A stretch of 63,831 bases of DNA, filler included, from Collodictyon triciliatum (taxonomy: Eukaryota), in assembly GCA_043381765.1 (NCBI GenBank). It is 10 parts of 10 records of this genome, joined end to end, with 100 filler letters (N's around TTAATTAATTAA, not from the genome) between each part and the next. Parts side by side here need not be neighbours in the genome. Positions count along the whole stretch, not along the records: positions 11,833 to 25,715 come from JBHJMP010000321.1; 9 more parts are not named here. The stretch is one strand, 5' to 3'. Each line of letters opens with the position of its first letter. Positions within the stretch are counted from its first letter, which is position 1. Shown here one piece after another: positions 12,006 to 13,402 of the stretch. The notes beneath the pieces were generated by a model, which saw nothing but the letters and a program-made list of their open reading frames with translations, was not told where the DNA came from and did not search any database. A program made the position numbers and the translations under genes.

Positions 12006-13402
12006 GTTCATCCGAAGTATCTGTCAAAACTTCACACCAATTACACATTTATCCTAGAGTGTAAACTTAACTTGAAACTCACCTTTTTGCTTGGAACGAG
12101 GTATATTATACACACAATAATAATGTTTTTATAATTTCATCTCATTATTCGTTGAAAAATTTTCATGCACCTCCATCGCTTATTAGATTAACATGTTACT
12201 ATATTTAAATGCATCTGGTTGTCAGATATTTGGAAGATTGTATGAAAACTCGCATATTGCTAGACCCAAGCAGACAATTGAATATTGTACTTCCTAAAGG
12301 TATAAATAAAATATAGAGTGGCTGTTTGCATGGTCATCATGTCCTCTCATGAAAAAAAAAAAAAAAAACTTGGTATAACCTCAATTATTCAAAAAGTCGG
12401 TCGTTCTGATCTATATGCCCCTCAAAAGGCGGTGTTCTATTGCTAGACGGAAATTACCTTTCAAGCCGAAAAGAGGTTGTGACCTTGCTTCTTAGCATCG
12501 TTGACAAGGTCACATTATTTCATCATCCACAAAATCAATTCTTGAATATTATAAAGTCATTCTTCTTGACTCGAGTTTTAAAAAATATAATATTGCAAGT
12601 GATTTCCTTCGGCGTGCTATATATAAAATGCGCCCGCTAAAAATCTGTTCTTTAGTACAATCACGGTGAATCATACTGGATAATGAAACTTCAATCGGAA
12701 TTCTACACTGGCCTCGAGAAGAAAGCACAAGGTTCAGAAATGTAAGTTACCTGTTCTGATTAAAAAAAAAAAAACTCGACTATCGCATTGACTATTTAAT
12801 ACAATATATGATAATTTTTCAATATGAAGGCTTCAAAAATTGCTCGTGGATATCAAACAAGGTAAATTGGTAGTTATTTGTAAAGAGTGTGCTTTCTTTT
12901 TCTTTCCCCCTTTTTTTTTCTTCTTACAGTTACTATGCGTAATATAACCATGTTGATTGATTGACTCGCAACAATTGCATGTCTATTTATCACTGTAAAA
13001 TGTTTGGCAGCTCTGAATCGGAGAATATTCCTGACGACCGACATCGAAGCGCCATCCAAGAGCAATTCTCTCCCCGCACTTGTGTGCTTGGCCCATAAGA
13101 TAGCCTATCTCAATGTGCAAAGATTCCGGCATGTTATCCTCGTTACAAACAACTCTCTTTTACAGGCGCAGTGCAGGGAGGGCAGGGTCGGTATTTATAT
13201 ATGTCAATTATCGCATGTATTTTCACTCTTTTGTTATTACACACCATTCATCATTCCCTTATGGGGTGGCGATCTTGAAAACCATCAATAGTTATTTTAT
13301 GTGTTCATTTGTTTTCATCAGTTTATTTCTCCTACATATCGAATTTAGGTTTTGGCTGTTGATTGCGACAGCCTCACCGATTACTTCAGGAAACTGGTTT
13401 AG
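12006..13402 (+). CDS. 3' part of a gene ending in a PIN-like domain resembling the TASOR/TASOR2 and fungal Chp1 C-terminus
   Basis: Seven phase-compatible GT-AG exons (12006-12060, 12226-12299, 12429-12508, 12656-12741, 12830-12861, 13011-13186, 13349-13402) give ..VLPKGGVLLLDGNYL..ESYWIMKLQSEF..LPALVCLAHKIAYLNVQRFRHVILVTNN..REGRVLAVDCDSLTDYFRKLV*. Gene model solid; family call from recalled motifs. Confidence 0.65.

What the first reader, a model, noticed from the sequence alone, without database searches (positions are those of the whole stretch)
12006..13402. Candidate TASOR/Chp1-type PIN-like domain: a possible HUSH/RITS-related silencing scaffold in a protist
Seen: seven small exons, mostly missed by the ORF track, splice in phase into a C-terminal domain GGVLLLD..YWIMKL..ALVCL..NVQRFRHVILVT..GRVLAVD..YF. 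Known (recalled): the PIN-like C-terminus of TASOR/TASOR2 (HUSH, which silences L1) and fungal Chp1 (RITS) shows the same ordered pattern GG-hhh-D, W-x-hK, L-x-CL, R-H/F-hhhT, G-hh-V. Inference: this may be a homologue outside animals and fungi, in a genome with recent L1-type retroposition.
Basis: partly seen in the sequence, partly recalled or inferred. Interest (0 to 1): 0.75.

Follow-up and report, generated by a model that had tools for sequence, protein, structure and literature searches.

The report
Expressed gene end, weakly PIN-like domain
The seven small exons are real and expressed, and they encode the last 198 residues of a much longer protist protein, but nothing I could run shows that this tail is related to the TASOR/Chp1 silencing scaffolds; it gives only a faint hint of a PIN-type nuclease-like fold.

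Summary
Observation confirmed. Seven GT..AG exons (12006-13402, + strand) splice in phase into 597 nt: 198 codons plus a TAG stop. cDNA-like contigs from three public runs in two studies show all six junctions and a poly(A) end at 13499. One 2297-nt contig places exon 1 at its position 2050, so the protein is much longer. Its 5' part is not in this window, because the assembly piece starts at 11833 inside an intron.

The TASOR/Chp1 reading could not be tested properly. The tools do not accept a spliced peptide, so I searched single exons and an in-frame read-through of exons 2, 3, 4, 6 and 7. These gave nothing in Pfam, NCBIfam, PADLOC, PDB sequences or 1.84 billion representative proteins. 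AlphaFold2 on the read-through was unusable, with mean pLDDT 38.

On the true spliced peptide, inside the script box, a profile of 30 bacterial PIN_4 domains scored best of five alpha/beta families. The score was only 3.7 bits, reached by 9 of 1000 shuffles; with hhalign, 7 of 220 shuffles reached the observed score. This is a hint of a degenerate PIN-like fold, not proof. The subfamily (TASOR/Chp1, SMG5/6-like or other) stays open. Interest is modest.

The parts
11733..11832 (.). Linker gap (44 N, TTAATTAATTAA, 44 N) that marks the start of the assembly piece holding the finding
   Evidence: One search lists nine such linkers beside plain 100-N gaps; sequence seen. The cDNA exon before exon 1 is found nowhere in the window.
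11833..12005 (+). 3' end of the intron upstream of exon 1 (T-rich, ends in AG); the piece starts inside this intron
   Evidence: The X2 contig leaves the stretch at 12005, with its first 2049 letters lying on nothing in 11834-14500 (tables 7 and 8).
12006..12100 (+). Exon 1 of the visible part (phase 0), residues 1-32 of the 198-aa tail
   Evidence: junction 12100/12226 in the X2 contig.
12226..12299 (+). Exon 2
   Evidence: junctions seen in X2, and in X1 and X2.
12429..12508 (+). Exon 3, with the GGVLLLDGN stretch (candidate first strand with Asp63)
   Evidence: junctions in X1 and X2.
12656..12741 (+). Exon 4 (YWIMKL...); one G>A difference at 12711 in the X1 contig
   Evidence: tables 3 and 5.
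12830..12861 (+). Exon 5 (32 nt)
   Evidence: both junctions in X1 and X3.
13011..13186 (+). Exon 6, the longest (ALVCL..., RHVILVTNN...). It holds the only stretch that aligns to a PIN_4 profile.
   Evidence: hhalign and hmmsearch alignments.
13349..13402 (+). Exon 7, coding part, ending in stop TAG at 13400-13402
   Evidence: junction 13186/13349 in X1.
13403..13499 (+). 3' untranslated region up to the poly(A) site
   Evidence: The X1 contig runs to 13499 and goes on with 19 A that are not in the DNA (table 7).

Best explanation
It encodes the last 198 residues of a protein that is probably about 880 residues or longer. Most of the gene lies off this assembly piece. Residues from about 57 to 198 alternate short hydrophobic stretches with amphipathic ones, as in a Rossmann-like alpha/beta domain. 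My best guess is a degenerate PIN-like domain of the PIN_4 flavour. Asp63 would sit after the first strand, but an Asn (N170, in ...LVTNN...) sits where bacterial PIN_4 domains have their last conserved Asp. Such a domain would more likely act as a binding or scaffold module, or at most a weak nuclease, at the C-terminus of a large nucleic-acid-related protein. Shown here: the gene, the splicing, the frame, the poly(A) site and the long upstream transcript. Inferred: the fold, the loss of catalysis and the role.
For: Gene and splicing: (six of six junctions in cDNA-like contigs, three runs, two studies). Length: the X2 contig of 2297 nt places exon 1 at its position 2050. The 30 letters shown before exon 1, together with the G at 12005, read as ten sense codons in the exon-1 frame (my reading). 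PIN-like hint, all on the true spliced peptide built inside scripts from window.fa: (1) hhalign against five family alignments made from bacterial loci gave the best score for PIN_4 (16.0, P 0.064) against PIN/VapC 12.7, NYN 12.8, Response_reg 12.0 and Flavodoxin 8.8. (2) 7 of 220 shuffles reached the observed PIN_4 score. (3) hmmsearch gave PIN_4 3.7 bits, reached by 9 of 1000 shuffles, against 167, 148 and 179 of 1000 for PIN, NYN and Response_reg; Flavodoxin reported no score for the real peptide. (4) The aligned part is positionally sensible: ALVCLAHKIA...HVILVTNNSLLQAQC falls on the last quarter of the profile (consensus rILa.a...lvtkDlnlr.kA). The definition of the fold (five parallel strands, acidic residues at strand ends) comes from PMC5499597, passages read.
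Against: Every score is far below significance: hhalign probability was 1% or less, and five families were tested, so the shuffle P of 0.01-0.03 does not survive correction. Pfam's own PIN models found nothing at E<=10 in the exons or the read-through, while the same scan found single-exon fragments of neighbouring genes: Topo II 32 aa at E 2e-12, WS_DGAT at 1.7e-6, kinase at 1e-8, Dpy-30 at 1e-8. There were no hits in PDB sequences, NCBIfam (one chance hit of 15 bits against a cut-off of 700), PADLOC or 1.84 billion representatives. The ESM Atlas did not recognise exon 6. The AlphaFold2 model is unusable, so no strand order is known. The global hhalign alignment did not place Asp63 on the profile's first Asp with any confidence. 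The upstream 2 kb could in principle belong to a chimeric contig.
Confidence: 0.4

Rival explanations
1. The tail is a lineage-specific alpha/beta (or mixed) domain with no relation to PIN domains. The motif likeness is the generic look of hydrophobic strand plus helix repeats.
For: No library or database search gave any hit. The PIN_4 signal is within what a few percent of shuffles reach. The low-confidence AlphaFold2 model drew mostly helices.
Against: Of the five families tried, only PIN_4 stood out, and it aligned at the expected place in the domain. The protein collections lack this organism and its close kin: the Topo II control found best hits at 69% identity or less. Silence in those collections therefore says little.
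Confidence: 0.4
2. One reading: the tail is the DomII/PIN end of a TASOR/Chp1-type scaffold of a HUSH- or RITS-like silencing complex.
For: The transcript is long, as expected of a large scaffold. Chp1 carries its SPOC, DomII and PIN domains in its C-terminal part, residues 504-960 (PMC5391189, figure legend read). The 56 residues before GGVLLLD look ordered rather than linker-like, which would fit a domain packed against the PIN (my reading, not tested). Both families have PINs that are not known nucleases (recalled). L1-like LINEs are noted elsewhere in this genome (earlier notes, unchecked).
Against: No sequence test links it to TASOR or Chp1. InterPro lists entries for the Chp1 PIN, SPOC and domain II (named in PMC12863538), and if their Pfam models are in the copy scanned they did not match; I could not check that they are. 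In TASOR the DomII/PIN region is 1233-1466 of 1670 residues, so it is not terminal (PMC7532188). SPOC, pseudo-PARP or chromodomain parts and the partner proteins could not be looked for.
Confidence: 0.08
3. The tail is the degenerate C-terminal PIN of an RNA-surveillance protein of the SMG5/SMG6/EST1 or Swt1 kind.
For: PIN_4 is the family that holds SMG5, SMG6 and Swt1, and SMG5 is listed there as a predicted inactive member (PMC5499597). PIN_4 was the only profile with a hint. From memory, SMG5 and SMG6 carry their PIN at the very C-terminus, as seen here.
Against: Pfam PF13638 did not match at E<=10, although ordinary SMG6-type PINs are well conserved (recalled). The upstream 14-3-3-like/EST1 region cannot be checked.
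Confidence: 0.12

Closest known systems
Chp1 (S. pombe RITS) and TASOR/TASOR2 (HUSH) DomII/PIN region
   Same: A large protein with a PIN-type alpha/beta domain near or at the C-terminus and without an evident full set of catalytic acids. Chp1's SPOC, DomII and PIN occupy residues 504-960 (PMC5391189). TASOR 1233-1466 is reported as homologous to Chp1 DomII/PIN (PMC7532188).
   Different: No detectable sequence similarity here. TASOR's PIN is not terminal. SPOC, DomI/DomII, pseudo-PARP or chromodomain parts are unknown for this gene because its 5' part is missing.
PIN_4 family (Pfam PF13638): eukaryotic SMG5, SMG6, Swt1; bacterial PhoH2-type PINs
   Same: It is the only profile with any signal. 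The ...ALVCLAHKIA...VILVTNNSLLQAQC... stretch aligns to the last quarter of a profile of 30 bacterial PIN_4 domains. SMG5 is a precedent for an inactive member (PMC5499597).
   Different: The score is 3.7 bits against a Pfam cut-off of 21.9 bits for true members. Asn stands where the profile has its last conserved Asp. Pfam's own model gives no hit.
Generic PIN-like superfamily (VapC-type PIN PF01850, NYN PF01936)
   Same: Size and alternating strand/helix pattern, with an Asp followed two residues later by Asn after the first hydrophobic stretch (by eye).
   Different: Profiles of 25 VapC-type and 27 NYN domains score no better than shuffles: 167 and 148 of 1000 shuffles reach the real score.

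Membership tests
TASOR/Chp1-type scaffold (HUSH/RITS) | C-terminal DomII/PIN region alignable to Chp1 or TASOR by profile or structure | tested here: inconclusive
   No hit in Pfam, PDB sequences or 1.84 billion representatives, but the queries were intron-broken. The AlphaFold2 model had pLDDT 38, so no fold search was possible. The published TASOR-Chp1 alignment is a picture and is not held as text.
TASOR/Chp1-type scaffold (HUSH/RITS) | SPOC domain upstream of DomII/PIN | not testable with these tools
   The 5' part of the gene is outside the window and no genome is held. It was not found in metagenome contigs.
TASOR/Chp1-type scaffold (HUSH/RITS) | N-terminal pseudo-PARP (TASOR) or chromodomain (Chp1) | not testable with these tools
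   Same reason: the upstream 2049 nt exist only in a run contig whose letters the tools do not give.
TASOR/Chp1-type scaffold (HUSH/RITS) | Partner genes in the genome (MPP8/Periphilin, or Tas3/Argonaute) | not testable with these tools
   No whole genome is available. Earlier notes on this genome that mention PIN or silencing: none.
PIN-like superfamily | Five parallel strands in an alpha/beta/alpha sandwich (PMC5499597) | tested here: inconclusive
   The only model that could be made is unusable. The pattern is read by eye only.
PIN-like superfamily | Conserved acidic residues at the strand ends | tested here: inconclusive
   Asp63, Glu98 and Asp133 are candidates by eye. In the only aligned stretch, the profile's last Asp faces Asn170.
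PIN_4 (SMG5/SMG6/Swt1/PhoH2), Pfam PF13638 | Match to the family profile above its cut-off (21.9 bits) | tested here: not met
   Pfam gave no match at E<=10. A local profile of 30 bacterial members scored 3.7 bits on the spliced peptide, reached by 9 of 1000 shuffles.
SMG5/SMG6 (EST1 family) | Upstream 14-3-3-like/EST1 helical region | not testable with these tools

The most novel reading that the evidence does not exclude
The tail is the DomII/PIN end of a TASOR/Chp1-like scaffold in a protist far from animals and fungi. SPOC-DomII-PIN silencing scaffolds of the HUSH/RITS kind would then date back to early eukaryotes and would coexist here with active L1-like elements.
Probability: 0.07. Interest if true: 0.75.

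Novelty: new member of a known kind. Interest (0 to 1): 0.3.

Why it matters
If the full protein proved to be a TASOR/Chp1 relative, it would link the animal HUSH and fission-yeast RITS scaffolds through a third, deep-branching lineage, and it would give a test case for how intron-poor retroelements are recognised outside animals. As it stands, the solid result is smaller. It is a correctly spliced, expressed gene end that automatic ORF tracks miss. It encodes a domain with no recognisable relatives in very large collections, in an organism whose proteins those collections do not hold. It is also a worked example of how little can be said about a split eukaryotic domain when only unspliced translations can be searched.

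Tried and rejected
1. Word-index homologue searches with exon 6 and with the exon 2-3 read-through ('longer' proteins): 14 and 64 candidates, none at E<=1.
2. Exhaustive phmmer of the frame-2 read-through (391 aa, of which 153 are exonic): 0 hits.
3. Metagenome contigs: 593 pattern matches for exon 6 peptides, none a relative. The 30-letter upstream cDNA end had 0 matches.
4. The same 30 letters and their parts in the window: no match of 11 letters or more.
5. ESM Atlas: exon 6 gave no usable hit.
6. AlphaFold2 of the read-through: mean pLDDT 38.3, pTM 0.25. It was not sent to any fold search.
7. PDB search with exon 3 found only chance matches to designed ankyrin-type repeat proteins (E 0.12-1.1).
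8. Earlier notes of this scan by place, words and sequence: nothing near, and nothing on PIN or silencing.
9. Run X4 laid nothing, and parts of the stretch without cover in single runs are not evidence of absence. An X3 contig with an AT..AT 'joint' at 13484/13607 and 24 foreign letters is probably another organism's.
10. A start at the ATG that directly precedes exon 1 in the cDNA, which would give a 199-aa protein, was considered. It is not excluded, but it is unlikely given about 2 kb of upstream transcript and an open frame through the ten visible codons.
11. The alternative first exon from ATG 11912 (ORF 11789-12064) was rejected. It is in another frame, and the cDNA enters exon 1 by the acceptor at 12005/12006.
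12. The paper by Schalch et al. 2011 on Chp1-Tas3 (PMC3230742) is not held. The supplement of PMC7532188 holds the legend of the TASOR/Chp1 alignment but not its letters.

Full report
**What is there.** Reading 11400-14000 and joining the candidate exons in a script gives seven exons on the + strand: 12006-12100, 12226-12299, 12429-12508, 12656-12741, 12830-12861, 13011-13186 and 13349-13402. My first script set the exon ends one base short. Every intron starts with GT and ends with AG. The 597 joined bases read as 198 sense codons and a TAG stop in one frame, while the other two frames carry 12 and 8 stops. No Rfam family matches anywhere in the window, and no second copy of the peptide lies in it.

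**RNA evidence.**
- One look-up of public runs found four runs. Laid on 11834-14500, three of them gave contigs.
- The X1 contig (597 nt) covers exon 2 to the end and skips five introns.
- The X2 contig (2297 nt) covers exons 1-3 and skips two introns.
- An X3 contig (151 nt, a freshwater metatranscriptome from another study) skips the two introns around exon 5.
- Together, six of six junctions are seen exactly where predicted, all GT..AG.
- The X1 contig continues after 13499 with 19 A that are not in the DNA. It begins with 23 letters that I recognise from memory as a template-switching cDNA primer.
- The runs are labelled 'RNA?' by the tool, but the intron-less joints and the A tail make cDNA the natural reading.
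- The stop is at 13400-13402, so the 3' UTR is about 97 nt.
- A second X1 contig shows a convergent, spliced transcript on the minus strand at 13710-14367.

**The gene is much longer, and its front is missing.**
- In the X2 contig, exon 1 begins at contig position 2050, so up to 2049 letters precede it. Table 7 gives the loose end as 255 letters, which I take to be a cap in the tool.
- The 30 letters shown, plus the G shared at 12005, read in the exon-1 frame as ten sense codons, the last an ATG.
- Those letters occur nowhere in the window: there is no match of 11 letters or more on either strand.
- The window has two kinds of gap: plain runs of 100 N, and nine linkers of 44 N, TTAATTAATTAA, 44 N.
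- One linker is at 11733-11832, directly before the finding. I read these linkers as joins between separate assembly pieces.
- The finding's piece is therefore 11833-25715, and it starts inside the intron before exon 1.
- This also explains why a minus-strand wax-ester-synthase-like gene (Pfam WS_DGAT_cat, E 1.7e-6) sits just across the linker.
- No whole genome is held. The upstream exon is not in the metagenome contigs, nor is exon 6.

**Homology searches.**
- Exons 2, 3, 4, 6 and 7 happen to lie in one reading frame. I therefore used single exons and a read-through of 12227-13399 with stops as X. That read-through is 391 aa, of which 153 are exonic.
- Pfam found 0 families at E<=10 for five exons and the read-through.
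- NCBIfam gave one chance match of 15 bits against a cut-off of 700. PADLOC gave none.
- PDB sequences gave none for the read-through and exon 6. Exon 3 gave only chance matches to designed repeat proteins.
- The word-index searches found none.
- The exhaustive phmmer over 1,835,955,588 representatives found 0 at E<=0.001.
- The ESM Atlas gave no usable hit for exon 6.

**Two controls put these blanks in proportion.**
- The same Pfam scan does find single-exon fragments of neighbouring genes: Topo II, WS_DGAT, two kinases and Dpy-30. A well-conserved family would therefore have been seen.
- A Topo II exon finds its best relatives at only 69% identity or less, with no self hit. The collections therefore lack this organism and its close kin, and 'no relatives' is weaker than it sounds.

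**Structure.** AlphaFold2 on the read-through gave mean pLDDT 38.3 and pTM 0.25. This is unusable, and I did not send it to a fold search.

**A test on the true peptide.**
- Inside the script box the peptide can be spliced from window.fa. To have something to compare it with, I fetched domain instances of five alpha/beta families from bacterial genomes.
- After dropping loci cut by contig ends and all loci of three genomes flagged unpublished, the sets were 30 PIN_4, 25 PIN (VapC type), 27 NYN, 27 Response_reg and 24 Flavodoxin_1.
- hhalign scores were PIN_4 16.0 (P 0.064), PIN 12.7, NYN 12.8, Response_reg 12.0 and Flavodoxin 8.8. All probabilities were 1% or less.
- Seven of 220 shuffles of the domain reached the PIN_4 score.
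- hmmsearch with all filters off gave 3.7 bits for PIN_4, reached by 9 of 1000 shuffles. For PIN, NYN and Response_reg, 167, 148 and 179 of 1000 shuffles reached the real score. Flavodoxin reported no score for the real peptide.
- The aligned stretch is ...ALVCLAHKIA...HVILVTNNSLLQAQC..., facing the last quarter of the profile (rILa.a...lvtkDlnlr.kA). Asn170 stands where the profile has its last conserved Asp.
- This is a consistent but very weak pointer to a PIN_4-like, probably degenerate, domain. With five families tried it is not significant, and the comparators are bacterial only.

**What the literature says (passages read, not whole papers).**
[quoted passage not shown] This region is dispensable for reporter repression, while the Chp1 PIN matters at subtelomeres (PMC7532188; review PMC7619638).
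- The C-terminal part of Chp1 (504-960) holds SPOC, DomII and PIN and binds Tas3 (PMC5391189).
- InterPro has separate entries for the Chp1 PIN, SPOC and domain II (named in PMC12863538).
- The PIN-like superfamily is defined by five parallel strands in an alpha/beta/alpha sandwich with acidic residues at the strand ends. PIN_4 holds SMG5, SMG6 and Swt1, with SMG5 as a predicted inactive member. That survey mentions neither Chp1 nor FAM208 (PMC5499597).
- I found no text giving the TASOR/Chp1 PIN alignment in letters. Schalch et al. 2011 is not held.
- My searches turned up no paper describing TASOR/Chp1 relatives in protists, but they were not designed to prove absence.

**Verdict.**
- The PIN-like idea is plausible and faintly supported.
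- The specific TASOR/Chp1 (HUSH/RITS) reading is untested in every defining respect, and I put it at under one in ten. An SMG5/6-like surveillance factor is at about the same level, and an unrelated lineage-specific domain is about as likely as any PIN.
- The decisive steps are simple but outside these tools: fold and profile the spliced peptide, and read the 2 kb of upstream cDNA.

Noticed in passing
window 6055-6154, 11733-11832, 25716-25815, 30248-30347, 34799-34898, 39251-39350, 43058-43157, 52231-52330, 59127-59226: Nine gaps are built as 44 N, TTAATTAATTAA, 44 N, beside plain 100-N gaps. They look like joins between separate assembly pieces, so neighbours across them need not be neighbours in the genome.
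   Followed up: partly
window 10294-11454 (-): Exon fragments of a wax ester synthase/diacylglycerol acyltransferase-like gene with the HHCIADG motif; Pfam WS_DGAT_cat E 1.7e-6. No bacterial relative was found by pattern scan.
   Followed up: partly
window 18468-25548 (-): A DNA topoisomerase II gene in many exons on the same piece as the finding. The best database relatives of one exon are only 69% identical or less, and none is from this organism.
   Followed up: partly
window 13710-14367 (-): A convergent neighbouring transcript with one intron (14112-14299, GT..AG on the minus strand), seen in an X1 contig. Its ORF 13775-14224 has no Pfam match.
   Followed up: no
window 12711: The X1 contig reads A where the window has G. 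This is a second codon position in exon 4 and would change Gly to Asp. It may be a strain or allele difference between the sequenced organisms.
   Followed up: no
window 1-2070 (-): A 690-aa open frame rich in Thr, Ser, Ala and Pro, with internal repeats, in a stretch of 48% G+C with strong GC skew against about 33% elsewhere. It looks like a mucin-like surface or secreted protein.
   Followed up: no
window 35200-35694 (+): An ORF with a Dpy-30 motif (E 1.1e-8) behind a Lys-rich stretch.
   Followed up: no
whole window, e.g. 11590-11732, 4100-4520, 16090-16500: Almost every gap is flanked by long microsatellites (7-mer, 3-mer and 2-mer units), often the same unit on both sides. The assembly seems to break at simple repeats.
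   Followed up: no
window 7046-7720 (-), 62789-63145 (-), 31342-31884 (-): Exon fragments of two protein kinases and of an SNF2-related helicase.
   Followed up: no
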